The notes under the pieces: generated by a model | Told to the model about the DNA's origin: nothing | Database searches by the model: none | The model's input: only the letters and a program-made list of their open reading frames with translations | Part shown: in pieces, positions 5,578-58,262 of the stretch | Numbering within the stretch: position 1 is the stretch's first letter | Layout: the number at the start of each line of letters is the position of its first letter | Position numbers and translations under genes: made by a program | Assembly: GCA_000990325.1 (NCBI GenBank) | Contig: LBPS01000008.1 | Span: 97 to 64,096, forward strand | Direction: 5' to 3' | Source: Candidatus Nomurabacteria bacterium GW2011_GWE2_34_25 | Lineage (GTDB): Bacteria; Patescibacteriota; Minisyncoccia; Phycocordibacterales; UBA9973 | DNA: 64,000 bases

Positions 5578-5598
5578 CGGGCGCAAGTCCTTAAAATT

Positions 5599-7269: not shown

Positions 7270-7270
7270 T

Positions 7271-7296
7271 TTTTTGACATAAGTCCGACTTATGTC
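7271..7296 (+). terminator. Rho-independent-type hairpin (T-run then gacataagt-ccg-acttatgtc)
   Basis: A 9-bp perfect stem with a ccg loop, preceded by TTTTTT. The AAGTCCGACTT core recurs at 46649. Confidence 0.5.
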
Positions 7297-16108: not shown

Positions 16109-16123
16109 AAGAAGTTGGAGCCG

Positions 16124-16251
16124 GCAAACGAGTTTCGGTCACAAATCTTTTTCTACTGAAAAAGTTCGCGACCCCGGCTCGGCTCGTCAGCCTGCGCCTT
16201 TCGAATCCTCGTGCCGGCAAAAAAGATGTCATTTAGACATCTTTTTTATTG
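16124..16251 (-). repeat. tRNA-adjacent structured repeat element (copy D), ending in an inverted and a direct copy of the tRNA-Thr 3' end
   Basis: The core on the minus strand (ggctgacgagccgag...ctttttcagtagaaaaag...gtgaccgaaa) is homologous to the cores at 57085, 49320 and 58190. An inverted copy ttcgaatcctcgtgccggc sits at 16200-16218. A direct partial copy gagccggcaaacgag sits at 16126-16140. The hairpin aaaaagatgtc-atttag-gacatcttttt lies internally. Confidence 0.7.
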
Positions 16252-16324
16252 AGCCGGCACGAGGATTCGAACCCCGGACATCCACTTTACAAAAGTGGCG
16301 CTCTACCAACTGAGCTATGCCGGC
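16252..16324 (-). tRNA. tRNA-Thr (anticodon TGT)
   Basis: Cloverleaf GCCGGCA/TGCCGGC acceptor, GCTC/GAGC D-stem, anticodon loop TTTGTAA, and T-loop TTCGAAT. Read by eye. Confidence 0.85.
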
Positions 16325-21707: not shown

Positions 21708-21735
21708 TATTCTACAATTCTATAGAATTGTAGAA
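21708..21735. promoter_or_regulatory. 28-bp perfect palindrome ATTCTACAATTCTATAGAATTGTAGAAT (candidate operator) upstream of paralog 2
   Basis: Exactly self-complementary, and 33 bp upstream of the start at 21768. Near-identical palindromes occur at 23493 and 48432, with a half-site at 23789. Confidence 0.7.
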
Positions 21736-21767
21736 TAGATTAATCTTAGATAATATTAATTAAATAT

Positions 21768-23465: not shown

Positions 23466-23492
23466 TAGTTTATTTTATATTATAAATAGTAT

Positions 23493-23520
23493 TCTATAAT
23501 TCTATAGAATTATAGAATAG
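23493..23520. promoter_or_regulatory. 28-bp perfect palindrome ATTCTATAATTCTATAGAATTATAGAAT, 12 bp upstream of the ArsR-like gene
   Basis: Perfectly self-complementary. It shares the TTCTATAGAA core with 21708 and 48432. Confidence 0.7.
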
Positions 23521-23531
23521 AAATAAATATT

Positions 23532-23804
23532 ATGAGAAAAACAAATAGAGAATTAGAAAGAATAGTTAAAGGGTTTGCAAATCACAGAAGAATTGAAATA
23601 TTATTCCTACTAGATAAGAATCCAGATTTGTCTGTTCTTGCGATTTCTGATAGATTGAAGTCTGATTTTAAAAATATTTCAGCTCATATAAGTAAAATGT
23701 ATATTGCGGGACTTTTAGTTAAAAGAAGTATGGGGAATACAGTTTGTCATAAACTTACGAAGCGTGGTAAATCTATTCTACAATTCGTTAGAATTATAGA
23801 ATAG
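23532..23804 (+). CDS. ArsR/SmtB-family winged-helix transcriptional regulator
   Basis: 90 aa containing ANHRRIEILFLL...LSVLAISDRL...NISAHISKMYIAGLL, the ArsR HTH signature. Confidence 0.7.
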   Translation: MRKTNRELERIVKGFANHRRIEILFLLDKNPDLSVLAISDRLKSDFKNISAHISKMYIAGLLVKRSMGNTVCHKLTKRGKSILQFVRIIE

Positions 23805-25079: not shown

Positions 25080-27273
25080 ATTAAAGAGTGGGTACAAGCC
25101 CGATGGCGACCAGCCAAAGGCCATAAAAGAGCTTCTGGAAGGTCTTAAGAAGGGTTTTGATAAACAGACGCTCCTAGGTGCTACTGGTACAGGGAAGACT
25201 TTCACGATAGCCAATGTTATCGAAGAGTGGGGGAAGCCGACCTTGGTCATAGCCCACAACAAGACTCTCGCTGCTCAGCTGGCTCAAGAATTTAGGGAGT
25301 TTTTCCCTGATGCCGCTGTACACTATTTTGTGTCTTATTATGATTACTATCAGCCAGAAGCATACATGCCAGTGACCGATACTTATATAGAGAAAGATGC
25401 TCAGATAAACAAAGAGATAGATAGGCTTCGCCATGCCACTACGCAGTCACTTCTTACACGCAAGGACGTTATTATTGTGGCTTCTGTTTCTTGTATTTAT
25501 GGTCTTGGAAGTCCAGAAGAATACGAGAAGGTAAATTTGAAACTTGAAATTGGATCCAAGATTGGAAGGACAGAATTAATGCGAAAGTTACTCGGAGTTC
25601 ATTTTGAAAGAACGAACTCAGACCTTACTCCAGGAACTTTCCGTTCTATTGGAGATAGAGTAGAAGTCATGCCTATATCGGAGACTTTTGTATATCAAAT
25701 AGAATTTGTAGGAGGTGCTATTTCTAAAATTTTAAAAGTAGACCCTGTGTCTGCCCATGTTCTGAAAGAAGAGAGTGGTATTTTCCTTTTTCCAGCCAAG
25801 CACTTTATTACCGAGACAGAGAAAGTAAAAGTGGCATTAAAGAATATTAAACTTGAGCTTACACAACAATTAAAAAAGTTTGAGAAGGAAGGCAAGCTTC
25901 TGGAGGCAGAAAGGATAAAGAGAAGAACCAATTATGATTTAGCAATGATCAAGGAAGTTGGATATTGTAGTGGTATCGAGAATTATAGTAGACAGCTTTC
26001 TGGCAAGAAGGAAGGGGAAGCTCCAGATACACTTCTCTCGTATTTCAAGAGTGATTTCTTAACTATTATCGATGAATCTCATGTGACTCTTCCTCAGCTA
26101 GGTGGTATGTATGCAGGCGATGCTTCTCGCAAGAAGACTCTTGTAGACTTCGGCTTCCGTCTGCCTTCTGCCAAGGACAATAGGCCTCTTAAGTATAATG
26201 AATTTGAAGAAAGAATTGGAGATGTGATATATGTATCAGCAACCCCAAGCGAGACAGAGAGGACAACTAGTGCTCAAGTTGTTGAACAGATTATTCGCCC
26301 AACAGGATTGATAGATCCAGAAATATTGGTAAGACCGGTTTCTGCAACAGAGGCTTCAGAATTTTTGAAAAATAATCGCTTATCCCTACCGAATTCTGAC
26401 AGTAGTCAGAATTCGGCGCGCGTCCACACCTACGATTATTTTTCTAAAAATTCTTTCGCCTCTTATCCTGGCCAAATTGAAGACTTTGTAGAAGAAGCAA
26501 ACCGAGTTATTAAAAAGGGTTTCCGTGCTATTGCTACGACTTTGACCAAGAATATGGCGGAGGACCTAACTTTATTTTTGAAAGAAAAGGGATTCAAAGC
26601 AGAGTACTTACATAGTGATATTAAAACCATAGAGAGAATTCAAATACTTTCTTCTTTTAGAAGAGGGGACTTTGATATTCTTATAGGAGTCAATTTACTC
26701 CGCGAAGGATTAGACTTACCCGAGCTAGCCTTGATAGGAATCTTGGATGCAGACAAGGAAGGTTTCCTTCGTTCGGAAACTTCTCTGATTCAGATTATAG
26801 GAAGAGCTGCTCGAAACGTAGAGGGGAGAGTTGTACTTTATGCTGATCGTATGACCAAGGCCCTAGAGAGTGCCATAGGAGAGACAAATAGAAGAAGAGA
26901 TATCCAGATAGCTTACAACAAGAAGCATGGTATTACTCCCCAGACTATTATAAAAAAGATTAATGATATTACCGAAGAGCTCGAGAACAAGCACGAGAAG
27001 GCGGTGAATGCAGAGCTAGACTTAGATGTAGAATTGTTCAAGAAGACTTTTGTAACAAGTAAAAGTAATAAGGGTAAAGGGGAAAGAGAATCTATCAAGA
27101 ATTTACTTCTTTCAGATGAAGATAGGAACAAATCTATTTATGAAAAAATTATAAAGATAAAAGAGAAGGAAATGAATAAAGCGGTGAAGGAACTAGACTT
27201 CGAAACTGCTGCTATATTACGAGATGAGATTATTATTTTGAATGATAAGTTTTTAAATAAAAATACAAAATAA
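25060..27273 (+). CDS. uvrB: Excinuclease ABC subunit B
   Basis: Walker A GATGTGKTF, helicase motifs, and the C-terminal UvrB/UvrC interaction motif ELDFETAAILRDEI. It carries an extra ~40-aa insertion. Confidence 0.95.
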   Translation: MTDKVFKLKSGYKPDGDQPKAIKELLEGLKKGFDKQTLLGATGTGKTFTIANVIEEWGKPTLVIAHNKTLAAQLAQEFREFFPDAAVHYFVSYYDYYQPEAYMPVTDTYIEKDAQINKEIDRLRHATTQSLLTRKDVIIVASVSCIYGLGSPEEYEKVNLKLEIGSKIGRTELMRKLLGVHFERTNSDLTPGTFRSIGDRVEVMPISETFVYQIEFVGGAISKILKVDPVSAHVLKEESGIFLFPAKHFITETEKVKVALKNIKLELTQQLKKFEKEGKLLEAERIKRRTNYDLAMIKEVGYCSGIENYSRQLSGKKEGEAPDTLLSYFKSDFLTIIDESHVTLPQLGGMYAGDASRKKTLVDFGFRLPSAKDNRPLKYNEFEERIGDVIYVSATPSETERTTSAQVVEQIIRPTGLIDPEILVRPVSATEASEFLKNNRLSLPNSDSSQNSARVHTYDYFSKNSFASYPGQIEDFVEEANRVIKKGFRAIATTLTKNMAEDLTLFLKEKGFKAEYLHSDIKTIERIQILSSFRRGDFDILIGVNLLREGLDLPELALIGILDADKEGFLRSETSLIQIIGRAARNVEGRVVLYADRMTKALESAIGETNRRRDIQIAYNKKHGITPQTIIKKINDITEELENKHEKAVNAELDLDVELFKKTFVTSKSNKGKGERESIKNLLLSDEDRNKSIYEKIIKIKEKEMNKAVKELDFETAAILRDEIIILNDKFLNKNTK
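26355..26475 (+). repeat. In-frame ~120-bp insertion in uvrB containing a 28-bp perfect palindrome (ccgaattctgacagtagtcagaattcgg) plus a segment related to the tgt/uvrA elements
   Basis: The perfect palindrome lies at 26389-26416. The downstream tttctaaaaattctttcgcctcttatcctgg resembles aaaaattcttcgcgctttaccctaaaggg in uvrA. The encoded ASEFLKNNRLSLPNSDSSQNSARVHTYDYFSKNSFASYPG is extra relative to canonical UvrB. Confidence 0.55.
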
Positions 27274-27577: not shown

Positions 27578-30268
27578 ATGAAAAAAGATACAACAGACAA
27601 AATAATAATAAAAGGGGCTAGAACTCACAATTTGAAGAATATTAGTGTTGAGATGCCGAGGAATAAAATGATAGTTATTACTGGTATGTCTGGCTCTGGT
27701 AAGTCTTCTTTGGCATTCGATACTATATTTGCTGAAGGGCAAAGGCGCTATGTGGAGAGTCTCTCTGCTTATGCTCGCCAATTCTTGAACCAAATGCCGA
27801 AGCCAGATGTCGATGAGATTACTGGTCTTTCTCCAGCTATTTCTATCGACCAGAAGTCTAGGTCGAACAATCCTCGTTCAACAGTTGCAACCATCACAGA
27901 GATATATGACTATCTTCGTGTTCTTTATGCACGTATAGGGCATCCTCATTGCCCCGAGTGTGGCAATGAGATTAAGAAACTTTCCAATGATGAAATACTT
28001 CATTTTGCAATAGATAAGATAAAGAATTTTCAAAAGGATAATAAAAACCCCGTAAAAAAGCAAAGCTTTAACGGGGCGAGGAAAGTATTAGGTGTCGAGT
28101 GGAACGAAGCTCCTGTCTCAATTCTTTCTCCGGTAGTTAGAGGTAGGAAAGGTGAGTACTACCAACTTCTTTATGATTTACTCAACAAAGGTTTTGCCGA
28201 GGTTCGTCTAGATGGACAGATCAAGAAACTAAGAGAGAGGATTGATATTACGAAGACAAAAAAGCACGACATAGAAGTTATAGTAGACACATTCCAAATA
28301 CATGAATTCAAAGACAATGAAAAGGATTCATACTCACGTCTAGCAGAGAGTGTCGAGAGAGCCTTACTTGAATCCGATGGCCTTGTAATTATTAAAATAG
28401 ATGAAGACGAGTACCTTATGTCTTCCAAGTTTTCTTGTGCCAACGATGGTTTCGCTTTTCCTGAGATAGAGCCTAGGCTTTTCTCTTTCAATTCCCCATA
28501 TGGAGCTTGTCCTACTTGTAATGGACTTGGTACGAAGTATTTCGGTGGCACAGAACCTTGTGATGATTGTAAGGGTTTGCGATTACGACCTGAAGCACTT
28601 CATGTATATCTAGGTAAATCCGCTCCGCAGAAGCATAAAAATTCTTCGCGCTTTACCCTAAAGGGCTCCGACGCGGATAAGAATTTTCATGTTTCTGCTC
28701 CGCTAAATATTGTAGACGTTACTAAACTTTCCATTTCAGATGTTGCTGACTTTTTTATTGAACTACAGTTGAACGATCAAGAAAAAGAAATTTCAAAAGT
28801 AGTTATCAAAGAGATCGAGGCACGAATTCAGTTTTTACTAAACGTCGGGCTTGATTATTTATCTCTCGACCGAAAAGCCAATACTCTCTCTGGAGGAGAA
28901 GCGCAGAGAATACGTTTGGCTTCCCAGCTTGGTTCACGACTTGTCGGAGCTTTGTATGTGCTCGATGAACCGACGATAGGTTTACATCAGAGAGACAACG
29001 ACAAGCTTATTAAAACCCTTGAGAATCTTCGTGACTTAGGGAACACTATCATTGTCGTAGAGCACGATGAAGATACTATATATGCATCGGATTATATTGT
29101 AGATATAGGCCCGAAGGCTGGAGTACATGGAGGGCAAGTAATAGTGTCGGATTATTTACAAGATTTACTTGATGCACCAAAGAACGTTTCCAATTCTAGA
29201 ACTTTAGCATATCTTAGAAATGAAGCTAGAATAGAAGTTCCGGAGAAAAGAAGAAATAGCGATAAGGGTAGTATCAAAATAATTGGAGGTAAAATTTTCA
29301 ATATTGATAATCTCAATGCTGAGGTTCCTCTAGGTAAGCTTGTCACTATTACGGGAGTATCAGGAAGTGGGAAGAGTTCTTTCATGTATGAGATTATCCA
29401 CAAGAATCTTCAGGCAAGATATGAAAGGAAGTTTAGAACAGCAAAGATTTTCAACTGCGCATCTTTCACTGGGACGGAGTATGCTTCTCGCGTCGTTCTT
29501 ATCGATCAGTCTCCTATAGGCCGTACTCCTCGCTCCAACTTAGCTACTTACACAGGAGCATTTACTCATATCCGTGATATGTTCGCACTTAGTGAAGAAG
29601 CAAGACTGAAAGGTTGGAAAGCCAATAGATTCTCTTTCAATGTGAAGGGTGGACGCTGTGAGGCTTGTGAAGGGAATGGAGAGGTAGCGGTAGAGATGCA
29701 TTTCTTGCCGACTGTTTACGTCACTTGTGATGTTTGTAATGGTAAAAGATTTGACAAAGAGACTTTGACTGTGAAATATAAAAAGAAAAATATTTATGAA
29801 GTTCTTCAAATGACAGTTGAAGAAGCGATAACTTTCTGGGAAGATATTCCCGCTGTGTACGATCGCATGAAGACGCTTATGGAAGTCGGTCTTGGCTATG
29901 TGAAGCTTGGCCAGTCTGCTACAACTCTTTCGGGTGGAGAAGCACAACGCGTAAAAATTTCTTCAGAATTATTTAGACCGTATGAAGAGAAGACTATTTA
30001 TCTACTAGATGAGCCGACAGTTGGACTTCATTATGATGACGTAGCAAAGTTGCTTGAAGTTTTGAATAGACTTGTGAATAAGGGCAACAGCGTAGTAGTT
30101 ATAGAGCACAATATGGATATTATAAAATGTTCAGATCACATTATAGATATCGGCCCCGAAGGTGGTCTCGGTGGTGGCAAGATTGTAGCAAAGGGAACTC
30201 CTGAAGAAGTTGCTAATAATAAAAATTCACACACTGGTAAATATCTTAAGAAAGTTTTGAAAAAATAG
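27578..30268 (+). CDS. uvrA: Excinuclease ABC subunit A
   Basis: Two ABC ATPase modules (GMSGSGKSSL, GVSGSGKSS, LSGGEAQR x2) and Zn-finger CxxC pairs. Confidence 0.95.
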   Translation: MKKDTTDKIIIKGARTHNLKNISVEMPRNKMIVITGMSGSGKSSLAFDTIFAEGQRRYVESLSAYARQFLNQMPKPDVDEITGLSPAISIDQKSRSNNPRSTVATITEIYDYLRVLYARIGHPHCPECGNEIKKLSNDEILHFAIDKIKNFQKDNKNPVKKQSFNGARKVLGVEWNEAPVSILSPVVRGRKGEYYQLLYDLLNKGFAEVRLDGQIKKLRERIDITKTKKHDIEVIVDTFQIHEFKDNEKDSYSRLAESVERALLESDGLVIIKIDEDEYLMSSKFSCANDGFAFPEIEPRLFSFNSPYGACPTCNGLGTKYFGGTEPCDDCKGLRLRPEALHVYLGKSAPQKHKNSSRFTLKGSDADKNFHVSAPLNIVDVTKLSISDVADFFIELQLNDQEKEISKVVIKEIEARIQFLLNVGLDYLSLDRKANTLSGGEAQRIRLASQLGSRLVGALYVLDEPTIGLHQRDNDKLIKTLENLRDLGNTIIVVEHDEDTIYASDYIVDIGPKAGVHGGQVIVSDYLQDLLDAPKNVSNSRTLAYLRNEARIEVPEKRRNSDKGSIKIIGGKIFNIDNLNAEVPLGKLVTITGVSGSGKSSFMYEIIHKNLQARYERKFRTAKIFNCASFTGTEYASRVVLIDQSPIGRTPRSNLATYTGAFTHIRDMFALSEEARLKGWKANRFSFNVKGGRCEACEGNGEVAVEMHFLPTVYVTCDVCNGKRFDKETLTVKYKKKNIYEVLQMTVEEAITFWEDIPAVYDRMKTLMEVGLGYVKLGQSATTLSGGEAQRVKISSELFRPYEEKTIYLLDEPTVGLHYDDVAKLLEVLNRLVNKGNSVVVIEHNMDIIKCSDHIIDIGPEGGLGGGKIVAKGTPEEVANNKNSHTGKYLKKVLKK
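28622..28703 (+). repeat. In-frame ~80-bp near-perfect palindromic insertion inside uvrA (encodes APQKHKNSSRFTLKGSDADKNFHVS)
   Basis: ccgcagaagcataaaaattcttcgcg...cgcggataagaattttcatgtttctgctccgc has arms of ~25 bp that are reverse complements. Its core matches the tgt element at 24440. The region is extra relative to canonical UvrA. Confidence 0.7.
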
Positions 30269-38662: not shown

Positions 38663-40306
38663 ATGAAAAAGATTTGTGAACATTGCCAGAAAGAATTCAT
38701 TATTACTGATATAGAGAAATCTTTAAGTGAAAAGATTGGACTAGAATTATCTACCGTCTGTTCAAGGTGTCTTTTAAAACAGCAGTTGTCTTTTTGGTTA
38801 TTTGGTAAATTTCGTAAAAGTAAATCTGATTTATCAGGTGAGAGTTTTATAACTGTATTACCAGAAAGTCGTTATCCACTTTACTCACTAAAGGAATGGT
38901 ATAGTGATGCTTGGGATGCGATGGATTACGGAGCGAAATACAATCCAAGTGAATCATTTTTTAAACAACTACAATCTCTTCAAGAGAAAGTTCCTCACCC
39001 TCATCAAAATGGAATTAATAATACAGGATGTGATTATTGTGATGATGTTTGGAGTTGCAAGAATTGTTATTTAGCTCGATCTATGGTTGATTGTGAAGAT
39101 CTTTTATATTCTTACCGAAACATTAAGGTTAAAAATTCTATAGATGTAGCTATATGCTTTAGTTCCGAGAGATGTTTTTGTTCTCTTAATTGTATGAATT
39201 CATATAAACTTTTCTATTCTAGAGATTCAAAAGATTGCATAGATTCATATTTTCTTTTTGATTGTCGCAACTGCCAGAATTGCTTCATGTGCTGTAATTT
39301 AAGAGGGAAGAGTTATTGTATAGAGAATGTACAGTATACAAAAGAAGAATACAATGAAAAACTAAAAGATTTTAATTTAGGTTCATATTCTCAAATTAAA
39401 CTGTTTAAAGAACATTTTGAAGAAATGCTTAAAAATGTAGCAATCCATAGATTAAATTTTAATCTTAAAACTTATAATTCTACTGGTAACAATTTATTAA
39501 ATGTAAATAATTGTATAAATTGTAATACTATTTCTGATTCAGAAGATTGTGTTAATTGTACAAGAGGTACTAAAACCAAATCCTCTTTAAATTATGCTGG
39601 ATGTTTTGAAGGAGAGTTGCTAGGTAGTTGTAGTGGTTGTGTGAATGCATATAATTTGAAATATTCTTCTTGGTCTTCGTCAAGATATTCTGAATATTTG
39701 GATTTGTGTATTGACTGTGAATATTGTTTTGGCTGTGTGGGGCTTAAGAAGAAAAAGTATTGTATTTTAAACAAGCAATACACCAAAGAAGAGTATGAAA
39801 AATTAAAAGATGAAATTATAAATAAAATGAAAGAAGACGGAGAGTATGGCAAGTTCTTACCTTACTCTATGAGTCCAGGACCATTCAATTTCTCAACTAG
39901 TTATTTATATTTCCCCAATACGACCAAGGAAGAAATTTTGAAATTGGGTGGTTATTGGCAAGACATAGATGAAAGCAATATAGAGGGTATGTCCACAAGT
40001 GAATTGCCTGACTCTATAGATGATGTGGATGAAAGTATTTGTACCAAAGCATTGATTTGTCCTCTGACTGGTTGGCGTTTCAATATTTCCAACAATGAAT
40101 TAGGATTTTATAAACAGTACAATATTCCACTTCCTCGTAAGCATTTTGATGTAAGAATAAAAGATCTGTTGAAATATTCAACTGTACTAGAAACAACTCC
40201 ATATAATTGTTATTATTGCAAAAACAAAATAGAAGCTTTTTATCCGAGTGAATGGGGGTACAAGAATATTGCTTGCGAAAGTTGTTATCAACAGAATTTA
40301 AACTAA
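38663..40306 (+). CDS. Cys-rich repeat protein with terminal zinc ribbons (paralog 3 of 4, more divergent)
   Basis: 547 aa. N-terminal CEHCQKEFII...VCSRCL, internal CRNCQNCFMCCNLRGKSYCIENVQYTKEEYNEKL and CEYCFGCVGLKKKKYCILNKQYTKEEYEKL repeats, and a C-terminal ...NIACESCYQQNLN. It starts 40 bp after the ATPase at 37130. Confidence 0.75.
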   Translation: MKKICEHCQKEFIITDIEKSLSEKIGLELSTVCSRCLLKQQLSFWLFGKFRKSKSDLSGESFITVLPESRYPLYSLKEWYSDAWDAMDYGAKYNPSESFFKQLQSLQEKVPHPHQNGINNTGCDYCDDVWSCKNCYLARSMVDCEDLLYSYRNIKVKNSIDVAICFSSERCFCSLNCMNSYKLFYSRDSKDCIDSYFLFDCRNCQNCFMCCNLRGKSYCIENVQYTKEEYNEKLKDFNLGSYSQIKLFKEHFEEMLKNVAIHRLNFNLKTYNSTGNNLLNVNNCINCNTISDSEDCVNCTRGTKTKSSLNYAGCFEGELLGSCSGCVNAYNLKYSSWSSSRYSEYLDLCIDCEYCFGCVGLKKKKYCILNKQYTKEEYEKLKDEIINKMKEDGEYGKFLPYSMSPGPFNFSTSYLYFPNTTKEEILKLGGYWQDIDESNIEGMSTSELPDSIDDVDESICTKALICPLTGWRFNISNNELGFYKQYNIPLPRKHFDVRIKDLLKYSTVLETTPYNCYYCKNKIEAFYPSEWGYKNIACESCYQQNLN

Positions 40307-46756: not shown

Positions 46757-48421
46757 ATGGAAACAAAGACTTGTCAAAACTGTAAAAATGACTTCATAAT
46801 TGAGCCAGATGACTTTTCTTTCTATGAGAAAATGAAAGTTCCTGTACCTAAAATTTGTCCAGATTGTCGCTTTAAAATGAGGGCAATGTGGAGAAATGAG
46901 ATGAGTATGTATTCAGGACGAAAGTGCGGTTTATGTGGCAAAAGTGTATTATCTATTTACAATCTCAAATCCCCATTTACAACATATTGTTATGAATGTT
47001 TTTATTCTGAAAAATGGAGTCCCAAAGATTATGCAACTCTATACGATAAGTCACGACCATTCTTTGATCAAATGGGGGAGTTTTTAATTAAAGTTCCTAA
47101 GATAAATTTAGGTATTTCTACTGGAGATGGACCAAATATAAATAGTGAATATGTGAATATGGCTGGAGGATGCAAGAATTGTTATCTTGTTTTTAATACA
47201 AGTCCTGCTGAAGAATTACTTTATTCTAGGGGTGTAAAGAGTGGTATTTTTTCTTCTGACATTTATTTTGGAGTGAAGTTTGAGAACTGTTACGATTGCG
47301 TGAGTATTCAAGAATCAGCCAATGTTTTCTGGGGACAAAACATTATGGGCTGTGTAGATTCCTATTTTATTTTAAATGGTAGTGGTCTCACGAATTGTTT
47401 TGGCTGTGTTAATTTAAGGAATAAAAGTAATTGTTGGTTTAATGAGCAATTAACTTCCGAAGAATATAAAACAAGATTGGGTGAAGTTATGGGTAGCTAT
47501 TCAAAAATATTAGAAGCTCGCAAGAAATTTGAAGAATTTTGTTTACAGCATCCACATAAAGAGAACAATAATTTAAAAACGATAAATTCTGTGGGGGACT
47601 ACTTAACTGAATGCAAAAATGTTGTAAATTCTTTTGAAGTGGCAAAATCAGAAGATTGTCGTTATATTTTTTCATCTAAAATGATTAAGGATTCTTTGGG
47701 AACAACTGGATTTGGGACAAAATCTGAAAGATTACTTGAAGTTGTTGCGACTGGACATTCTAGTAATATTATAGGTTCTTATTGGGCGGAAAATTGTAGT
47801 AATGTAATGTATTCTTTTGATTTGAGAAATTGCCATGATTGTATAGGGTGTGACGCTCTAAAGAATGGTAAATATGCCATTTTTAACAAAGAATATTCAA
47901 AGGAAGAATACGAGGAATTAAAGGCTCATATTGTTAAAGAGCTTACAGAACAGGGGATACATGGGCTCATGATGCCAGTAATTATCGCTCCATTTGCATA
48001 CAATGAAACAATTGCTCAAGATAATTTCTCACTAACCAAAGAGGAAGCATTGGCCCAAGGCTATAGGTGGGAAGATGATATACAGATGACTAAGGGCAAG
48101 GATACAATACAGCTAGATGACATAGAAGATAATATCAAAGATATTAGAGATTCTATAACAAGTGAAATATTGAAATGCATCTCTTGCGAAAGGAATTATA
48201 AGATTACGGAGCAAGAGCTACTTTTTTACAGAAAAATGGTCCTACCTATTCCTCGTCAGTGTTTCTATTGTCGTCATCAGGATAGAATAAAAAGGCGAGG
48301 TCCATATAAATTCTGGGATAGGAAATGTGATCATTGTGATAAAGATATTAAAACCAATTATTCACCAGAACGTAAGGAAATAATATACTGCGAGAAGTGT
48401 TATCAGCAGGAAGTAATATAG
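46757..48421 (+). CDS. Cys-rich repeat protein with terminal tandem zinc ribbons (paralog 4 of 4)
   Basis: 554 aa. N-terminal CQNCKNDFIIEPDDFSFYEKMKVPVPKICPDCR...RKCGLCG, C-terminal CISCERNYKI...FYRKMVLPIPRQCFYCR...CDHCDKDIKTNYSPERKEIIYCEKCYQQEVI, and internal CHDCIGCDALKNGKYAIFNKEYSKEEYEEL repeats. Confidence 0.8.
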   Translation: METKTCQNCKNDFIIEPDDFSFYEKMKVPVPKICPDCRFKMRAMWRNEMSMYSGRKCGLCGKSVLSIYNLKSPFTTYCYECFYSEKWSPKDYATLYDKSRPFFDQMGEFLIKVPKINLGISTGDGPNINSEYVNMAGGCKNCYLVFNTSPAEELLYSRGVKSGIFSSDIYFGVKFENCYDCVSIQESANVFWGQNIMGCVDSYFILNGSGLTNCFGCVNLRNKSNCWFNEQLTSEEYKTRLGEVMGSYSKILEARKKFEEFCLQHPHKENNNLKTINSVGDYLTECKNVVNSFEVAKSEDCRYIFSSKMIKDSLGTTGFGTKSERLLEVVATGHSSNIIGSYWAENCSNVMYSFDLRNCHDCIGCDALKNGKYAIFNKEYSKEEYEELKAHIVKELTEQGIHGLMMPVIIAPFAYNETIAQDNFSLTKEEALAQGYRWEDDIQMTKGKDTIQLDDIEDNIKDIRDSITSEILKCISCERNYKITEQELLFYRKMVLPIPRQCFYCRHQDRIKRRGPYKFWDRKCDHCDKDIKTNYSPERKEIIYCEKCYQQEVI

Positions 48422-48431
48422 ATAATATCTG

Positions 48432-48459
48432 TTCTCTAATTCTATAGAATTGTAGAATA
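48432..48459. promoter_or_regulatory. Near-perfect palindrome TTCTCTAATTCTATAGAATTGTAGAATA, 10 bp upstream of the methyltransferase gene
   Basis: One mismatch from perfect symmetry. It belongs to the same motif family as 21708 and 23493. Confidence 0.65.
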
Positions 48460-48468: not shown

Positions 48469-49245
48469 ATGCAAAATAAAAAACAAAAAAACAAAAAGGA
48501 TACTTCATGGAATAGTGTATCGAGTTGGTACGATGAATTGTTGAAAGGGGATGATAGCTATCAAGCGAAGGTTATATTGCCGAATTTACTTCGATTTCTT
48601 GATTTGAAGAAAGGAGAAACAGTTTTTGATCTTGCTTGTGGTCAAGGGTATTTTGCCAATGTTTTTGCTCATAATGGGGCAGATGTTACGGCTTCAGATT
48701 TATCCAAGAATTTAATAGAAACTGCCAAGAAGAATTCTAAAGAAAAAGTTGTTTTCTATATATCACCTGCACATAAGGCGCAATTTTTAAAAGATAGTTC
48801 CGTTGATACTATCGTTATTGTACTTGCTACTCAAAATATTGAAAACATAAACGAAGTCTTTGTTGAATGTAAAAGGGTTCTTAAAAAGAGTGGGCGAATG
48901 GTTCTAGTTTTGAATCATCCAGCTTTTCGTATTCCACAAGGTAGTGATTGGGTTTTTGAAAGTGGAGTTCAATCTCGTATTATTAGCCAGTATCTATCGC
49001 CATCCAAAATATTTATCGATATGACTCCAGGAGAGAAAAATCCAAAGAAGAAAATTAAAACAATATCTTTCCATCGCTCACTTCAAGATTATATGAAGGT
49101 TTTTTCTAAAAGTGGCCTTGTCATCACACGTCTTGAAGAGTGGATCTCGCACAAGCAAAGCGGGTCAGGTCCTCGTCAAATAGCTGAAGATAAAGCTCGC
49201 AAAGAAATTCCTATGTTTATGTGTATAGAGATTAAAAAAATATAA
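48469..49245 (+). CDS. Class I SAM-dependent methyltransferase
   Basis: Motif I VFDLACGQGYF and a post-I acidic residue (TASDLS). Rossmann-fold MTase pattern. Confidence 0.75.
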   Translation: MQNKKQKNKKDTSWNSVSSWYDELLKGDDSYQAKVILPNLLRFLDLKKGETVFDLACGQGYFANVFAHNGADVTASDLSKNLIETAKKNSKEKVVFYISPAHKAQFLKDSSVDTIVIVLATQNIENINEVFVECKRVLKKSGRMVLVLNHPAFRIPQGSDWVFESGVQSRIISQYLSPSKIFIDMTPGEKNPKKKIKTISFHRSLQDYMKVFSKSGLVITRLEEWISHKQSGSGPRQIAEDKARKEIPMFMCIEIKKI

Positions 49246-49291
49246 TTAATAACAAAAAGCTACTTCTCAAATAGCTCTCTTTGATAGCGTA

Positions 49292-49397
49292 TTCTTGAAT
49301 AGTCTTATCAGAGGGGCCGGCGGAGAGTGACGACTCGAGCAATGAGCAAATTTTCAGCAGAAAATTATGCGGACCCTCTGAGAAGAGCTATTCAAGA
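49292..49397 (+). repeat. Structured repeat element copy A (~105 bp), with terminal inverted repeats tcttgaatagtcttatcagagggg / ccctctgagaagagctattcaaga
   Basis: The core ggcggagagtgacgactcgagcaatgagcaaattttcagcagaaaattatgcgg is homologous to the cores at 57085 and 58190 (reverse complement) and 16140 (reverse complement). It lies between convergent genes. Confidence 0.75.
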
Positions 49398-49406: not shown

Positions 49407-49985
49407 CTAATTTATTTTCTCCAATGCCTTAGGAATTTTATTGAAATCTTTTATAAGAGTTTCTCTCATTCCTCCATTATATAATGCAGCGGCAGGGTGG
49501 TAGAGGGGGAGGAAGGCTTGCTTTTTGCCTAGCTCAGGGATGGATTTGATTAAGAGCTTACCATGCACGTCAGAGATTTTTTCCGTAGGAAAAAATCGAA
49601 GCATTGAATGCCTCCCTAGGAATACAATAAGTTTAGGTGAAATTATTTTTAATTCGGCTATGAGCCACTCATTACATTCTTCTTTTTCATTTGGCTCCGG
49701 ATCTCTATTGTCAGGTGGACGATATTTTACAATATTTGTTATGTAGATATCCTCTCTTTTCATTCCTATACCTTCAAGCATTTCACTAAGGAACTTTCCT
49801 GCTGCTCCTATAAATGGTTTACCACCCTCATCTTCCTTTTTTCCTGGAGCTTCCCCTATAAAGACTATCTCACTTTCCGCATTACCATCGCCAAAAACGG
49901 CTTGTTTAGCAGTCTTTTTAAGATCACAAGTACAATTCTCTTGCCAATATATGTTCAACTTGTCTAATTGTTCTCGTTTTGACAT
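49407..49985 (-). CDS. Family 4 uracil-DNA glycosylase (Fe-S type)
   Basis: GEAPGKKEDEGGKPFIGAAGKFL motif, N-terminal Cys residues (ENCTCDL), and C-terminal HPAAALY. Confidence 0.8.
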   Translation of the reverse strand: MSKREQLDKLNIYWQENCTCDLKKTAKQAVFGDGNAESEIVFIGEAPGKKEDEGGKPFIGAAGKFLSEMLEGIGMKREDIYITNIVKYRPPDNRDPEPNEKEECNEWLIAELKIISPKLIVFLGRHSMLRFFPTEKISDVHGKLLIKSIPELGKKQAFLPLYHPAAALYNGGMRETLIKDFNKIPKALEKIN

Positions 49986-50025
49986 TTCACTATTATAACA
50001 TTTTGTAATTTGATATAATAGAAGA

Positions 50026-50622
50026 ATGCCAGACAAAATCATACTTAATCAAAAATTTTGGAATATGAGAGAAGAAGATCTACCTTGTCTTATTACTTAT
50101 GGGAACAAATCTGGTGGTTCATATTTTTCTGTTGTAACACTTGCCAATTTATTATTAGCTGGATCAAAAGTTTTATTATTTACGGCTTATCCTATGGCTA
50201 AAGATAATTTCTTGGGGCAAATTAAAGGAGGTGGACAAGATGTATCTTATATTTCAAATGAAAGTGAACTAAATAGCAAAACGGGAGCTATTATAATAGA
50301 AAGTGGTAATGAAGAATTATTCTTAAAAGCTCTTGAAAAATTAGATGACATAGAAGATCGTGTAGTTCTAATAAAGAATATTGAAGTATTTGATTCTACC
50401 ACTATTGAAGCTTGTTTAAAACTCAAGAAAGTAATCATTTCAGGTGATATAGATCTTTGTTCTTCCAACAAGCTTATTATGGATAAGCAGTTCAATACAA
50501 TCGTTATTTTTTCTAATCCAAAGGTAACATTATCATTTGATGTTCCAGAATTAGAAAAATATAAAGGTTATTTGTGGAGTATTAATAGTAAGGGCATCGT
50601 CGCTGTCCAAAAAGAAAATTAA
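50026..50622 (+). CDS. Hypothetical protein
   Basis: A 198-aa ORF with no recognised motif. Confidence 0.35.
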   Translation: MPDKIILNQKFWNMREEDLPCLITYGNKSGGSYFSVVTLANLLLAGSKVLLFTAYPMAKDNFLGQIKGGGQDVSYISNESELNSKTGAIIIESGNEELFLKALEKLDDIEDRVVLIKNIEVFDSTTIEACLKLKKVIISGDIDLCSSNKLIMDKQFNTIVIFSNPKVTLSFDVPELEKYKGYLWSINSKGIVAVQKEN

Positions 50623-55466: not shown

Positions 55467-56600
55467 ATGCAAAACAAATCACTTTCATACATAGAAATCT
55501 CAAAAGATAATTTGATACACAATATCAGGCAGTTTAGAGTTCTTTTGAAGAATAAGACGAAAATTGCTGTAGTGGTGAAGGCCAATGCTTACGGTCATGG
55601 AGACATGGAGGTAGCCAAGATCGTAAATCCTTACGTGGATTATTTTCAGGTAGATAGTATAGAGGAGGCCGAGAGAGTAAGAAAGGTAAGCAAGAAACCT
55701 ATTCTAATATTTGGATATACAAATGAAGATGGGGTAAAAAGAGCTATAAAGATAGGGGCGATAATTTCTGCTTTTGATTTGATACATCTTTTGAAGATTA
55801 ATCGTGTTGCAGAAATTTCTAAAAAGAAAATAAAAGTTCATCTTGCGATAGATTCGTATTTAGGCAGAGAGGGTATCATGCCTTCTCAAGTAGAGAATAT
55901 AATAAAAGAAATAAAAAATTTAAATAATATAGTTTTAGATGGAGTATATTCACATTTTGCAAACATCGAGGATACAATGAATTCTACTCATGCCAACAGA
56001 CAGATAGATACATATCATAAGTGTGTAGAGATTTTTAGGGAAAATGGTTACAAAAATATCAATACACACATATCAGCGACTTCAGGGATTTTGGTTTATG
56101 AAAAAGGGGATAATTTACACAGTATTGTTCGTCTTGGTATTGGGCTTTATGGTATGTGGCCAAGTGAACACTTGGAATATTTGAATAAAAAGAAAATAAA
56201 TTTGAAGCCAGTTTTGAAATGGGTCACTCATGTTGCTCAAGTGAAAGTTATCCCTGCCAATCATCCCATAGGTTATGGTCTGACTTACATTACCAAGAAA
56301 GCGACCAAGATAGCCGTCATTCCTCAGGGCTATTACGATGGGCTCACGCGTTCAATGTCTAATAATGGGGAATTCTTGATAAGAGGCAAAAAAGCGAAGA
56401 TTATAGGCCGAGTTGCCATGAATATGATCGTAGTAGATGTATCACACATTAAAGATGTTCGAGCAGATGATGAGGTGGTTATAATAGGCATACAAGGTAA
56501 AGCTAAAATCACAGCTGAAGATATGGCGAAAAGGATGGATACTATAAATTATGAAGTAACTACGAAAATAAGTGCCTTATTGCCAAGAGTGATTATATAA
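55467..56600 (+). CDS. alr: Alanine racemase
   Basis: PLP-lysine motif AVVKANAYGHG and a C-terminal beta domain. It starts 5 bp after ddl. Confidence 0.88.
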   Translation: MQNKSLSYIEISKDNLIHNIRQFRVLLKNKTKIAVVVKANAYGHGDMEVAKIVNPYVDYFQVDSIEEAERVRKVSKKPILIFGYTNEDGVKRAIKIGAIISAFDLIHLLKINRVAEISKKKIKVHLAIDSYLGREGIMPSQVENIIKEIKNLNNIVLDGVYSHFANIEDTMNSTHANRQIDTYHKCVEIFRENGYKNINTHISATSGILVYEKGDNLHSIVRLGIGLYGMWPSEHLEYLNKKKINLKPVLKWVTHVAQVKVIPANHPIGYGLTYITKKATKIAVIPQGYYDGLTRSMSNNGEFLIRGKKAKIIGRVAMNMIVVDVSHIKDVRADDEVVIIGIQGKAKITAEDMAKRMDTINYEVTTKISALLPRVII

Positions 56601-56710
56601 AAGGTGAAAATGTTTAAAATTTACGAGTAGGTGTGGGCGCGCCGTAGCGTAACGAAGTGAAGCGGAGAGGGATAAGCGAGTAAATTTGAAACATTTTCAC
56701 CTTTTATATA
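56593..56710. repeat. 118-bp palindromic element: ~33-bp near-perfect inverted repeats (ttatataaaaggtgaaaatgtttaaaatttacgag) flanking a 48-bp G+C-rich centre containing GGCGCGCC
   Basis: The arms are reverse complements with one mismatch. The centre (gtgggcgcgccgtagcgtaacgaagtgaagcggagagggataagcgag) shares the gcggagag...cgag motif with the repeat cores at 49320 and 57090. Confidence 0.7.
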
Positions 56711-56962: not shown

Positions 56963-57033
56963 GGGCGATTAGTTTAGTGGTAGAACGATGGTCTCCAAAA
57001 CCATTGGTGGGGGTCCGATTCCTCCATCGCCCG
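56963..57033 (+). tRNA. tRNA-Trp (anticodon CCA)
   Basis: Acceptor GGGCGAT/ATCGCCC, anticodon stem ATGGT/ACCAT, loop CTCCAAA, and T arm GGGGG-TCCGATT-CCTCC. Confidence 0.85.
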
Positions 57034-57035
57034 CA

Positions 57036-57182
57036 AGAAAATAAACAAGATGTTATCTTGTCTATTTTAGATGGAAGAATCGGAAGACGGAGGCTGACGA
57101 GCCGAGTTGGGGTCGAGAGATTTTTCAGCAGAAAAATAATCGTGACCGAAAGTGTAATCACGATTCCTCCATCGTTCGCAGT
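57036..57182 (+). repeat. tRNA-adjacent structured repeat element (copy C), with an inverted and a direct copy of the tRNA-Trp 3' end
   Basis: Hairpin aacaagat-gtt-atcttgt, inverted copy gatggaagaatcg, core ggaggctgacgagccgagttggggtcgagagatttttcagcagaaaaataatcgtgaccgaaag, then direct copy cgattcctccatcgttcg (compare tRNA cgattcctccatcgcccg). Same layout as copy D at tRNA-Thr. Confidence 0.75.
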
Positions 57183-58136: not shown

Positions 58137-58164
58137 TTTGTGTGTGAATATATAAATTAGCTTC

Positions 58165-58262
58165 TTTCGAAATGCACACATAATTTTCTGCTGAAAATTT
58201 GCTCTTCTCGACCCGTCGGTCTCCGAAAGGCATTTCTTAAGAACTAATTTATATATTCGCAT
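58165..58262 (-). repeat. Structured repeat element copy B (minus-strand orientation) in the miaA upstream region
   Basis: The reverse complement reads ggagaccgacgggtcgagaagagcaaattttcagcagaaaattatgtgtgc. A 26-bp stretch is identical to copy A. It is flanked by imperfect inverted repeats (ctttcgaaatgc / gcatttcttaag). Confidence 0.7.

What the first reader, a model, noticed from the sequence alone, without database searches (positions are those of the whole stretch)
49292..49397. Intergenic copy A of the repeat family: a MITE-like ~105-bp unit with 23-bp terminal inverted repeats
Between convergent genes (methyltransferase and UDG), tcttgaatagtcttatcagagggg...ccctctgagaagagctattcaaga forms a long closing helix around the conserved core. 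The core carries a 26-bp stretch identical to copy B in the miaA leader (58190-58215, reverse complement).

Identical 26-mers in two places in an otherwise diverged AT-rich genome point to recent mobility or gene conversion.
Basis: seen in the sequence. Interest (0 to 1): 0.55.

Follow-up and report, generated by a model that had tools for sequence, protein, structure and literature searches.

The report
Mobile capped-hairpin repeat of Patescibacteria
The 105-base hairpin is real and belongs to an apparently undescribed family of small non-coding elements found in over a hundred Patescibacteria genomes: a long variable stem capped by a strongly conserved three-way junction. The elements come, go, flip and insert into tRNA genes, but they are not classical MITEs.

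Summary
The hairpin at 49292-49397 is real (fold z = -7.3).

The window holds four copies (66-70 bits; next hit 11.8). A pattern scan found the same ~60-nt core in at least 120 loci, nearly all Patescibacteria. Rfam 15 and the literature searches found nothing.

The core is CGGAG, a 4-bp hairpin with a GNCG loop, GAG, a hairpin with an AGCA loop and a bulged A, then GUG. It covaries strongly: 97.8% of cells pair against 75.6% when shuffled. Only one strand shows the fold (G.U:A.C = 57:19 in stems, 26:1 at one pair).

The outer stems vary, the opposite of MITE inverted repeats, and no target-site duplication is seen. The exact 26-mer also occurs in nine other loci from other assemblies, so it reflects constraint, not recent movement.

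Mobility is supported. Relatives have empty A, B and C sites, one relative carries a neighbouring element inverted in place, and one lineage sits in six gene contexts. tRNA-linked copies are insertions carrying a new tRNA 3' end, a terminator, an inverted copy of that end, and the core.

Best reading: a non-autonomous mobile element whose folded single-stranded cap is recognised in trans. Whether that strand is DNA or RNA is unresolved.

The parts
49292..49397 (+). Copy A (the finding): a complete type-1 element, long stem plus three-way-junction cap
   Evidence: Fold z = -7.25. Covariance model R1 scores 69.3 bits on 49317-49378. Its boundaries are defined by homology with L021, which ends at GAATAG...CTATT.
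49292..49318 (+). A, 5' arm of stem P1 (F1-lineage arm AATAGTCTT...)
49325..49336 (+). A, hairpin P2: GAGT-GACG-ACTC (4-bp stem, GNCG loop)
   Evidence: All four pairs covary across 124 copies. In L021 the same element has AGGC/GCCT.
49346..49370 (+). A, hairpin P3: GCAAATTTTC-AGCA-GAAAATT-A-TGC, with AGCA loop and bulged A at 49367. It lies within the 26-mer 49344-49369.
49371..49397 (+). A, 3' arm of stem P1 (...AAGAGCTATT with a bulged G)
49254..49284 (.). Short A-tract hairpin (AAAAAGCTA...TAGCT) just upstream of A. On the - strand it reads as a terminator-like hairpin followed by TTTTTG, downstream of UDG. Its sequence partly resembles A's 5' arm.
   Evidence: Read from the sequence; weak Rfam alignments to this hairpin only.
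58146..58258 (-). Copy B: a type-1 element of the same F1 lineage, between the promoter region and the ATG (58136) of miaA
   Evidence: Fold z = -8.1. R1 scores 70.0 bits on 58170-58229. The site is empty in L141.
57036..57180 (+). Copy C: a type-2 (tRNA-linked) module. It comprises a terminator hairpin at 57045-57061, an inverted copy of the tRNA-Trp 3' end at 57070-57083, the cap at 57084-57149, a small hairpin at 57152-57161, and the displaced original tRNA 3' end X' at 57161-57180.
   Evidence: X' abuts the miaA stop codon exactly as the tRNA itself does in the empty-site relative L142.
56963..57034 (+). tRNA-Trp(CCA). By inference its 3' part (about 57016-57035) was supplied by the inserted module.
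16117..16250 (-). Copy D: a type-2 module after tRNA-Thr (16251-16324 -). It comprises a terminator hairpin at 16219-16247, a 19-nt exact inverted copy of the tRNA 3' end at 16200-16218, the cap at 16135-16200, and a degenerate direct copy X' at 16117-16137.

Best explanation
What it is (largely shown). Copy A is one member of an apparently undescribed, Patescibacteria-wide family of 100-190-nt non-coding 'capped hairpin' elements.
- Each has a long stem of variable sequence (up to about 55 bp).
- Each is closed by a conserved cap of about 60 nt, a three-way junction: CGGAG / P2 (4 bp, GNCG loop) / GAG / P3 (AGCA loop, bulged A) / GUG.
- The cap is kept by selection for base pairing of one specific strand.
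- Two layouts exist. In type 1 (A and B) the variable stem encloses the cap. Type 2 (C and D) is tied to tRNA genes.

Behaviour (shown by comparison). The elements act as non-autonomous mobile DNA. They are present or absent at orthologous sites, can be flipped in place, and occur about once per 15-25 kb. They carry no gene and have no associated transposase nearby.

Type-2 copies are precise insertions in tRNA genes, most often in the T loop between C56 and R57. The inserted piece brings four things:
1. a replacement tRNA 3' end;
2. an intrinsic terminator;
3. an inverted copy of that tRNA end;
4. the cap, which always ends GUGAC(C) at the joint with the displaced original tRNA end.

How it works (inferred). 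The element propagates through a folded single strand.
- The cap is the recognition module for a trans-acting enzyme encoded elsewhere in these genomes, a recombinase or HUH-type strand transferase.
- The stem presents the joint, and strand transfer happens at the 3' edge of the cap.
- The order X - body - antiX - cap - X' at tRNAs matches what integration of a folded hairpin attachment site would give, as described for CTXphi.

I put about 0.45 on the folded strand being DNA and about 0.4 on it being RNA. As a by-product the elements supply hairpins and terminators between tightly packed genes.
For: Family and conservation.
- At least 120 genome loci, almost all Patescibacteria.
- Four copies in the window at 66-70 bits against 11.8 for the next hit.
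- 128 hits in 688 kb of loci.

Structure.
- 97.8% of cells pair against 75.6% in shuffles and 36-55% when the partner is slid.
- 384 cells have changes on both sides, against 114 expected.

Strand specificity.
- G.U:A.C = 57:19 in type-1 stems, with mismatches scored symmetrically.
- GC55/GU26/AU24/AC1 at the basal P3 pair.
- The signal holds whether the upstream gene is co-oriented (24:5) or divergent (28:10).

Mobility.
- Empty A sites in L148 and L149; a different element in L150; the same element inverted as a whole in L144 and L146.
- Empty B site in L141 and empty C site in L142.
- The F1 lineage (A, B, L015, L021, L051, L062) lies beside MTase/UDG, miaA, RNase H/ComEC, DprA, FtsQ/Dus and ThrRS.

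tRNA insertion anatomy.
- About 23 type-2 copies lie 27-213 nt downstream of a co-oriented tRNA.
- Direct repeats of up to 22 nt start exactly after GTGAC(C).
- antiX is a true reverse complement of X. It has A opposite the U of the T-stem G.U pair, and it complements the non-palindromic T loop of tRNA-Trp.
- X' sits where the tRNA end sits in the empty relative.

Non-autonomy and cargo.
- Only housekeeping neighbours.
- A 6.9-kb defence island in L030 is bracketed by two motif-bearing 330-bp repeats at tRNA-Asn and has no integrase.
Against: - No mobilising enzyme has been identified, and no free (circular or hairpin) form has been seen.
- Type-1 copies such as A show neither a target duplication nor the X-body-antiX-cap-X' order, so the CTXphi-like scheme explains only type 2.
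- Conserved G.U positions in P3, a bulged A, tandem-GA internal loops and 'swapped-loop' variants look more like a tertiary-folded RNA than a DNA site.
- The tRNA-Trp-linked copy recurs next to alr and tRNA-Trp in several species, with arms that track each species' own tRNA. That could mean a host function rather than selfish spread.
- In type 2 a strong terminator sits immediately upstream of antiX-cap, which argues against efficient transcription of that strand. This cuts against RNA but does not prove DNA.
- The copies were ascertained with a pattern that fixed GACG, GAG and TTTTCAGYAGAAAA, so the invariance of those positions is overstated.
Confidence: 0.55

Rival explanations
1. The element is a functional, host-beneficial structured RNA. 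It could be a multi-copy small RNA or protein-binding cap, or a new self-cleaving/ligating ribozyme. Its three helices would be open at different places in different copies, as in circularly permuted ribozyme families. The apparent mobility would be a side effect of gene turnover.
For: - Strong covariation in P2 and P3, with conserved junction purines and loops.
- G.U tolerated but A.C not.
- A conserved bulged A, and tandem-GA internal loops in outer stems.
- Variants in which the AGCA and GNCG loops swap helices.
- Type 1 and type 2 are circular permutations of one another, and the type-2 break lies exactly at the 3' edge of the cap, GUGAC(C)|. That is where a cleavage site would be expected.
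- The tRNA-Trp-linked copies are syntenic in several species.
Against: - No promoter is evident.
- In type 2 a strong intrinsic terminator lies directly upstream.
- Type-1 orientation relative to neighbouring genes is mixed, and most often antisense to both neighbours.
- Copies are lost, replaced and inverted at the same site among close relatives.
- No known ribozyme core is present. The CUGACGAG...CGAAAC in C and D is an accident of P2 = GGCU/AGCC, and Rfam gives no hit.
- P2 almost never passes through G.U (1-3 of 124 copies per pair).
Confidence: 0.27
2. The element is a classical MITE. That would be a deletion derivative of an insertion sequence, recognised through its terminal inverted repeats by a DDE transposase and inserted with a fixed target-site duplication.
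For: - It is small, non-coding, multi-copy, bounded by inverted repeats, and polymorphic in presence.
- Within the F1 lineage the arms are shared.
Against: - Arms differ completely between lineages while the internal core is conserved phylum-wide.
- There are no direct target duplications at A or B against the empty sites. Instead the flanks are inverted complements of each other.
- No transposase was found among 171 neighbouring ORFs.
- The tRNA copies carry 14-22-nt repeats of the target plus an inverted copy, which no DDE mechanism produces.
Confidence: 0.05
3. The element is a purely structural hairpin used by the host. It would act as a bidirectional terminator, transcription insulator or mRNA-stabilising hairpin (REP-like), with the cap as a protein-binding knob.
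For: - Preferred positions are gene 3' ends. The downstream gene converges on the element in 33 of 47 cases, and only 6 of 47 elements sit between divergent genes.
- Some rods are flanked by A and T tracts, for example L150 and L144.
- Type-2 modules bring a canonical terminator to tRNAs that lack one in the empty-site relative.
- The empty A sites have overlapping or abutting convergent genes.
Against: - A itself has no U tract, and no terminator is called at it.
- B sits in a 5' leader.
- A terminator does not need a 60-nt cap conserved with covariation across a phylum.
- This reading does not explain the inverted and direct copies of tRNA ends.
Confidence: 0.1

Closest known systems
MITEs and other enterobacterial/neisserial interspersed hairpin repeats (Correia/NEMIS, RUP, ERIC) (from my own knowledge)
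   Same: Small, non-coding, multi-copy and intergenic. They fold as hairpins, show presence/absence polymorphism, and can supply terminators or processing sites.
   Different: In those elements the terminal inverted repeats are the conserved, transposase-recognised part and insertions carry fixed target duplications. Here the apex is conserved and the stems vary, no target duplication is seen, and the family spans a phylum-level group rather than a genus.
REPIN-RAYT systems (pairs of REP sequences mobilised by a single-copy HUH transposase) (from my own knowledge)
   Same: Long hairpins of about 100 nt, tens of copies per genome, extragenic. No gene lies inside the element, and mobilisation in trans by one chromosomal enzyme is the accepted model.
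   Different: REPIN stems are the conserved REP sequences, tagged with GTAG or CGTC, and the apical spacer is variable. That is the reverse of this family. No RAYT was looked for or found here.
Folded single-stranded DNA recombination sites: CTXphi attP(+) forked hairpin and integron attC (from my own knowledge)
   Same: Only one strand folds. Structure rather than stem sequence is conserved. The integrated order target - body - inverted copy - spacer - target matches type-2 copies. No target duplication of the transposase kind occurs.
   Different: No dif-like or R/L-box consensus (GTTRRRY) is present, and no Xer or IntI link has been shown. The conserved part here is the apical structure, which is the variable part of attC. 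Type-1 copies do not show the integrated topology.
tRNA-targeting genomic islands with tyrosine integrases (T-loop, anticodon-loop and 3'-end sublocations) (from my own knowledge)
   Same: Insertion in tRNA genes with restoration of the gene by an element-borne 3' part and a displaced direct repeat. The same three sublocations are seen. One 6.9-kb island is bracketed by the modules.
   Different: The inserts are 130-330 bp and have no integrase.
Parvovirus (AAV) T-shaped inverted terminal repeat (from my own knowledge)
   Same: A long stem capped by two small hairpins forming a three-way junction. It exists in two orientations (flip/flop). GAGC repeats occur in the stems of some copies.
   Different: This is a structural analogy only. 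These are chromosomal interstitial elements in bacteria. No Rep gene was looked for or found here, and no linear single-stranded replicon is known to me.
Circularly permuted self-cleaving ribozyme families (hammerhead types I-III, twister P1/P3/P5) (from my own knowledge)
   Same: Multi-copy, with junction nucleotides conserved and stems covarying. There are permuted layouts and an association with mobile or repeated DNA.
   Different: No known catalytic core is present, Rfam gives no hit, and activity is untested.

Membership tests
Classical MITE | Terminal inverted repeats conserved among all copies and matching a parental IS | tested here: not met
   Arms are unrelated between lineages while the internal core is conserved. 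Arms are shared only within the F1 lineage. No parental IS was found beside 171 flanking ORFs.
Classical MITE | Fixed-length direct target-site duplication | tested here: not met
   Filled sites (window, L150) were compared with empty sites (L148, L149, L141). No direct repeat is present, and the flanks are inverted complements.
Classical MITE | Multi-copy, non-coding, presence/absence polymorphism | tested here: met
REP / REPIN-RAYT | Conserved 20-40-nt palindrome with a GTAG or CGTC tag forming the stem; variable apex | tested here: not met
   The stems are variable and carry no tag; the apex is the conserved part.
REP / REPIN-RAYT | Single-copy RAYT (HUH Y1) gene in the same genome | not tested
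   Only 64 kb of this genome and 8-kb loci of other genomes were available.
Folded-ssDNA attachment site (CTXphi attP / integron attC) | Strand-specific folding of an imperfect inverted repeat | tested here: met
   G.U(T):A.C = 57:19 in stems and 26:1 at the basal P3 pair. The test cannot tell DNA from RNA.
Folded-ssDNA attachment site (CTXphi attP / integron attC) | Integrated order: target - body - inverted copy - spacer - target | tested here: inconclusive
   Met for type-2 copies C, D and about 20 others. Not met for type-1 copies, including A: no upstream direct copy of the 3' arm exists in the window.
Folded-ssDNA attachment site (CTXphi attP / integron attC) | dif-like or R/L box consensus, and a cognate Xer/IntI recombinase | tested here: not met
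   On reading the aligned copies I saw no such consensus; no pattern search was run for it. No integrase was found among the neighbours.
tRNA-integrating genomic island | Direct repeat of the tRNA 3' part flanking the insert, with the tRNA kept intact | tested here: met
   Repeats of 14-22 nt begin at C56/R57 or at the tRNA 3' end. The empty-site comparison is with L142.
tRNA-integrating genomic island | Element-encoded integrase | tested here: not met
   The inserts of 130-330 bp have no ORF. The L030 6.9-kb island carries defence genes only.
Any Rfam 15 RNA family (including hammerhead, twister, pistol, hatchet, SRP, 6S, Y RNA) | Match to the family covariance model | tested here: not met
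   No hit overlaps the elements at gathering thresholds in the window. No meaningful hit appears at E<=10 on A and B or at E<=5 on C and on a type-2b copy.
Intrinsic terminator | GC-rich hairpin followed by a U tract | tested here: not met
   None is called at A or B. Type-2 modules contain a separate canonical terminator upstream of the cap.

The most novel reading that the evidence does not exclude
The cap is a new catalytic or guide-bearing nucleic-acid module. It would be either a new class of self-cleaving/ligating ribozyme acting at GUGAC(C)|, or the recognition knob of a hairpin-shaped mobile element. In the second case the stem would be copied from its own target site, so that the element carries a folded double-strand mimic of the place it inserts into. 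That would amount to programmable homing without an element-encoded protein.
Probability: 0.2. Interest if true: 0.9.

Novelty: new variant of a known kind. Interest (0 to 1): 0.7.

Why it matters
Patescibacteria (CPR) are a large, mostly uncultured part of bacterial diversity, and from my own knowledge they have tiny genomes in which little non-coding DNA is tolerated.

A 100-190-nt non-coding element that persists at about one copy per 15-25 kb must be doing one of two things. Its cap is conserved with abundant compensatory changes across more than a hundred genome assemblies, mostly species representatives. Either it is a very successful parasite using a conserved host enzyme, or it is an RNA or DNA device the cells need.

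The precise tRNA insertions suggest a mechanism not covered by the textbook classes of transposons and integrases. They occur at T-loop C56|R57, they restore the gene, they add a terminator, and they carry an inverted copy of the target.

The family is also a practical matter:
- It breaks assemblies. One Logan contig (L153) stops 44 nt after the UDG gene, a few nt short of A's 3' arm.
- It is missing from Rfam 15.
- It is a ready marker for genome dynamics in CPR populations.

Tried and rejected
1. Hammerhead ribozyme. C and D contain CUGACGAG...CGAAAC, but A and B have GUGACGAC and CCGACGGG at that place. The 'CUGA' is therefore just the covarying P2 stem. Stem II would not pair, and Rfam finds nothing.

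2. Known RNA families in general. Five Rfam searches found nothing.

3. Phage origin. A scan of IMG/VR gave 20 hits. All come from one unrelated phage family and lack the P2 pairing, so they are chance matches.

4. A linked enzyme. Pfam scans of 98 + 73 flanking ORFs found only housekeeping genes.

5. Stems as guides against local targets. K-mer and local-alignment searches of the arms within the window and within the loci found only the tRNA ends for type 2, and nothing for A or B.

6. tRNA primer-binding site of a retroelement. antiX stops at position 72 and does not cover the discriminator or CCA. It also copies the gene rather than the mature tRNA.

7. antiX as a copy of the tRNA 5' strands (a 'minihelix' pseudogene). 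Rejected because antiX has A opposite the U of the T-stem G.U pair, and it complements the non-palindromic T loop of tRNA-Trp.

8. Fold-back synthesis from a native tRNA terminator. Rejected because the empty-site relative L142 has no terminator between tRNA-Trp and miaA.

9. Inverted triplication by replication template switching. The expected extra copies of the junction repeats are absent.

10. Strain-level polymorphism of A. Contigs carrying the identical UDG protein showed the same arrangement or ended at the element's edge.

11. Literature. Seven full-text searches found no description. One preprint on mining non-coding elements could not be opened.
Full report
**1. Observation**

It lies in the 161-nt spacer between a class I methyltransferase gene (48469-49245, +) and a UDG-family gene (49407-50042, -), which converge.

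The + strand folds at -52.3 kcal/mol against -28.0 +/- 3.4 for dinucleotide shuffles (z = -7.25). The fold is a 27-nt-per-arm stem with two mismatches and one bulge, closing a three-way junction. That junction holds two small hairpins, P2 (49325-49336) and P3 (49346-49370).

The 26-mer GAGCAAATTTTCAGCAGAAAATTATG occurs exactly twice, at 49344-49369 (+) and 58179-58204 (-), with none expected by chance.

**2. Four copies, two layouts**

A looser search found two further copies. A covariance model later confirmed exactly four in the window, at 66-70 bits, with the next hit at 11.8 bits.

| Copy | Coordinates | Strand | Layout |
|---|---|---|---|
| A | 49292-49397 | + | type 1 |
| B | 58146-58258 | - | type 1 |
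| C | 57036-57180 | + | type 2 |
| D | 16117-16250 | - | type 2 |

All four share the same core: CGGAG, P2 (4-bp stem with a GACG loop), GAG, P3 (AUUUUUC-AGCA-GAAAAAU with a bulged A), then GUG.
- P2 covaries even among these four copies: GAGU/ACUC, GACC/GGUC, GGCU/AGCC.
- The outer stems of A and B differ in much of their sequence but fold alike.

C and D each lie about 60 nt downstream of a co-oriented tRNA, Trp and Thr respectively.

**3. A phylum-wide family that is not in Rfam**

The window gives only five tRNA hits at Rfam's gathering thresholds. Permissive scans of A, B, C and a related copy gave nothing meaningful.

A scan of one genome per GTDB species used the pattern GACGNNNNGAGN{5,25}TTTTCAGYAGAAAA.
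- Almost all are Patescibacteria: Nomurabacteria, Paceibacteria, Kaiserbacteria, Zambryskibacteria, Yonathbacteria, and MAGs labelled Saccharibacteria.

The same pattern in IMG/VR hit only one unrelated phage family that lacks the P2 pairing.

Model R1, built from 124 cores, found 128 copies in 688 kb of these loci. About 30 of them had been missed by the pattern, which gives a background density of roughly one per 15-25 kb.

Seven literature searches found no description.

An identical UDG protein places the window on NCBI assembly GCA_003446925.1, contig DMBE01000009.1. The closest named homologues are from Candidatus Nomurabacteria/Paceibacterota.

**4. The cap is under selection to pair, on one strand**

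On 124 distinct cores:
- 97.8% of cells form standard pairs, against 75.6% in column shuffles and 36-55% when the 3' partner is slid.
- 384 cells carry changes on both sides, against 114 expected.
- The covariation score is 0.579 against 0.159.

The upper P3 stem and both loops were fixed by the search pattern. Copies found by the model alone show that these positions vary in a compensatory way too:
- UUUUC/GAAAA becomes UUUUU/AAAAA, AAUUC/GAAUU or UUUCC/GGAAA.
- The loops stay AGNA and GNCG.
- Some variants carry the AGCA hairpin in the P2 position and a GAG-CGACGG-GAG unit nested at the P3 apex.

Strand test. The 5' flank was aligned to the reverse complement of the 3' flank, with all mismatches scored alike.
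- Type-1 stems show 1549 Watson-Crick pairs, 57 G.U, 19 A.C and 109 other.
- The basal P3 pair is GC 55, GU 26, AU 24, AC 1.
- The bias holds whether the upstream gene is co-oriented (24:5) or divergent (28:10).

So the strand written GACG...UUUUCAGCAGAAAA is the one that folds: the + strand for A and the - strand for B. This test cannot separate RNA from single-stranded DNA.

**5. The stems are not MITE-type terminal repeats**

Across the family the stems are long (up to about 55 bp, often perfect) and differ in sequence. Some share conserved internal loops, for example GUCGAAG/CGAGAAAG, or AAGCGAGCGAGG/CCGAGCGAGCC, which can form tandem sheared G.A pairs.

A and B belong to one lineage, here called F1. 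Its arms are AAUAGUCUU... and ...AAGAGCUAUU. Copies in five other genomes share them.

The L021 copy is 88 of 96 nt identical to A. Homology stops sharply at GAATAG...CTATT, and the flanking genes differ. Three of its four P2 pairs are changed compensatorily.

**6. Mobility**

F1 copies lie beside six different gene pairs:
- MTase/UDG
- miaA
- RNase H/ComEC
- DprA
- FtsQ/Dus
- ThrRS

The A site in relatives, found through UDG homologues:

| Locus | UDG identity | State of the MTase/UDG spacer |
|---|---|---|
| L148, L149 | 88% | Empty; the genes overlap or are 9 nt apart |
| L150 | 87% | A different-lineage type-1 element, same orientation as A |
| L144, L146 | 95%, 90% | The L150 element inverted as a whole, including its asymmetric internal loop, between unchanged ATAAAAA / TTTTTAT flanks |
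| L145, L147, L151 | 92%, 91%, 90% | UDG has a different downstream neighbour; no element |

The B site. In L141 (MiaA 70% identical) the conserved promoter region runs straight into the ATG. In the window B is inserted there.
- B's left outer arm, GAATATATAA, corresponds to ancestral flank.
- Its right outer arm, TTATATATTC, is an inverted copy of that flank.

The C site. In L142 (MiaA 60% identical) the tRNA-Trp 3' end abuts the end of miaA, with no element.

No direct target-site duplication is visible at A or B. Pfam scans of 171 ORFs flanking elements found only housekeeping genes.

**7. Anatomy of the tRNA-linked copies**

Type-2 copies have 15 nt between GAG and UUUUCAG and an extended P3 (GGUC...GACC). 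About 23 of roughly 55 lie 27-213 nt downstream of a co-oriented tRNA.

The order of parts is constant:
1. the tRNA;
2. an A-tract/hairpin/U-tract terminator;
3. an inverted complement of the tRNA 3' end (antiX; 19 of 19 nt in D);
4. AAGNCCGGAG and the cap, ending GUGAC(C);
5. a direct and often degenerate copy of the tRNA 3' end (X').

antiX is a true reverse complement. It has A opposite the U of the T-stem G.U pair, and it complements the non-palindromic T loop UCCGAUU of tRNA-Trp.

The direct repeat begins immediately after GUGAC(C):
- in the T loop at C56|R57 (L007, L008, L012, L052, L053, L071, L094);
- at the very 3' end of the tRNA (L022, L070, L099);
- in copies upstream of a tRNA, inside a partial 5' copy of that tRNA at the anticodon arm (L055, L072).

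In the window, X' (57161-57180) sits 2 nt from the miaA stop codon, exactly where the tRNA end sits in the empty-site relative. So X' is the original tRNA end.

The inserted piece is therefore about 147 bp and contains a new tRNA 3' part, a terminator, antiX, the cap and a small hairpin.

Folding tRNA-Thr together with D gives a 'tRNA with a giant T-loop insertion'.

antiX pairs better with the functional tRNA end (mean score 10.7) than with X' (7.7). Its complementarity is therefore being maintained.

In L030 a 6.9-kb island is bracketed by two 330-bp direct repeats next to tRNA-Asn, each carrying the motif. The island encodes:
- a GmrSD/HNH protein;
- an EcoRI-like methylase;
- an SDH protease;
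- AbiEii/AbiEi;
- no integrase.

**8. Interpretation**

Shown: A is a member of a conserved, strand-specifically folded, multi-copy, non-coding family that is gained, lost and inverted at orthologous sites. Members insert precisely into tRNA genes while restoring them.

Inferred: the elements are non-autonomous, and the cap is the module recognised by something encoded elsewhere in these genomes.

The order X - body - antiX - cap - X' is what integration of a folded hairpin attachment site gives. CTXphi attP(+) and, more loosely, integron attC are the precedents (from my knowledge). A type-2 element written as a circle is a type-1 rod.

I therefore favour movement through a folded single strand, with strand transfer at the 3' edge of the cap.

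Features that favour DNA:
- the terminator directly upstream of antiX-cap;
- mixed orientation relative to genes;
- whole-element inversion in place;
- P2 almost never passing through G.U.

Features that favour RNA:
- conserved G.U pairs in P3;
- the bulged A;
- tandem-GA loops;
- loop-swap variants.

I cannot decide between them. The scheme also does not explain how type-1 copies such as A are inserted.

**9.

Right: the hairpin, the repeat family, and the suspicion of mobility.

Wrong, or unsupported:
- The MITE label. There are no conserved terminal repeats, no target duplication and no transposase.
- The inference from the identical 26-mer. The same 26-mer is found in L014, L034, L041, L042, L064, L076, L086, L090 and L093, so it reflects constraint.

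**10. Limits**

- The copies were gathered with a pattern that fixes part of the core.
- Only 8-kb loci, not whole genomes, were searched with the model.
- No expression data, no read-level data and no enzyme candidate were available.
- The resemblances to CTXphi, attC, REPIN, AAV inverted terminal repeats and permuted ribozymes are analogies recalled from knowledge, not tests.

Noticed in passing
window 56594-56710: A fifth long hairpin lies between the alanine racemase gene and a small Cys-rich ORF. It has 31-nt arms, 97% complementary, and folds with z = -6.4. Its 55-nt apex is different from the family cap. Parts of that apex are inverted copies of a coding segment at 26373-26433.
   Followed up: partly
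window 21708-21740, 23490-23521, 23774-23803, 48427-48459: A 30-nt perfect-palindrome motif, TATTCTACAATTCTATAGAATTGTAGAATA, recurs just upstream of several genes, including the methyltransferase next to A. It looks like a shared operator or promoter element.
   Followed up: no
window 46757-48421, 5594-7275, 21763-23471, 39314-39835: A paralogous family of ~550-aa CxxC-rich proteins. The copy tested (46757-48421) has no Pfam match. The family accounts for most of the long direct repeats in the window.
   Followed up: no
L030 1-8000: A 6.9-kb defence-type island (GmrSD/HNH, EcoRI-like methylase, SDH protease, AbiEii/AbiEi) lies next to tRNA-Asn. It is bracketed by two ~330-bp direct repeats that each contain the capped-hairpin module, and it has no integrase.
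   Followed up: partly
L141 2690-2951 and L102 about 2340-2700: After tRNA-Trp these genomes carry two tandem modules. The first has antiX and X' but a different, apparently unrelated apex. In L141 the second module has lost antiX and P2 by deletion.
   Followed up: partly
L031 7693-7782, L066 7544-7634, L091 138-228, L052 5209-5291, L070 5037-5096: 'Swapped' variants of the cap. The AGCA-loop hairpin sits in the P2 position, and a GAG-CGACGG-GAG unit is nested at the P3 apex.
   Followed up: no
L118, L120, L027, L033 (upstream of type-2b copies): A recurrent GTCATCCTCGCGA...GGATGAC / TGTCATTCCCGTGAAGACGGGAATCC type of repeat accompanies some stand-alone type-2 copies. This suggests further families of small structured repeats in these genomes.
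   Followed up: no
window 56963-57034 and 16251-16324; L142 3439-3445: Neither the tRNA-Trp nor the tRNA-Thr gene in the window encodes the 3' CCA. In the empty-site relative L142, tRNA-Trp abuts the end of miaA with no spacer or terminator.
   Followed up: no
L153 (Logan contig SRR6487543_22): A contig carrying the identical UDG gene ends 44 nt after it, a few nt short of A's 3' arm. The long hairpin may break short-read assemblies.
   Followed up: no
window 24441-24504 and 28640-28703: A 64-nt direct repeat, 83% identical, lies inside two long ORFs (24363-25079 and 27578-30268). It folds only modestly better than shuffles (z = -2.2 and -3.7) and is probably a shared protein motif.
   Followed up: partly
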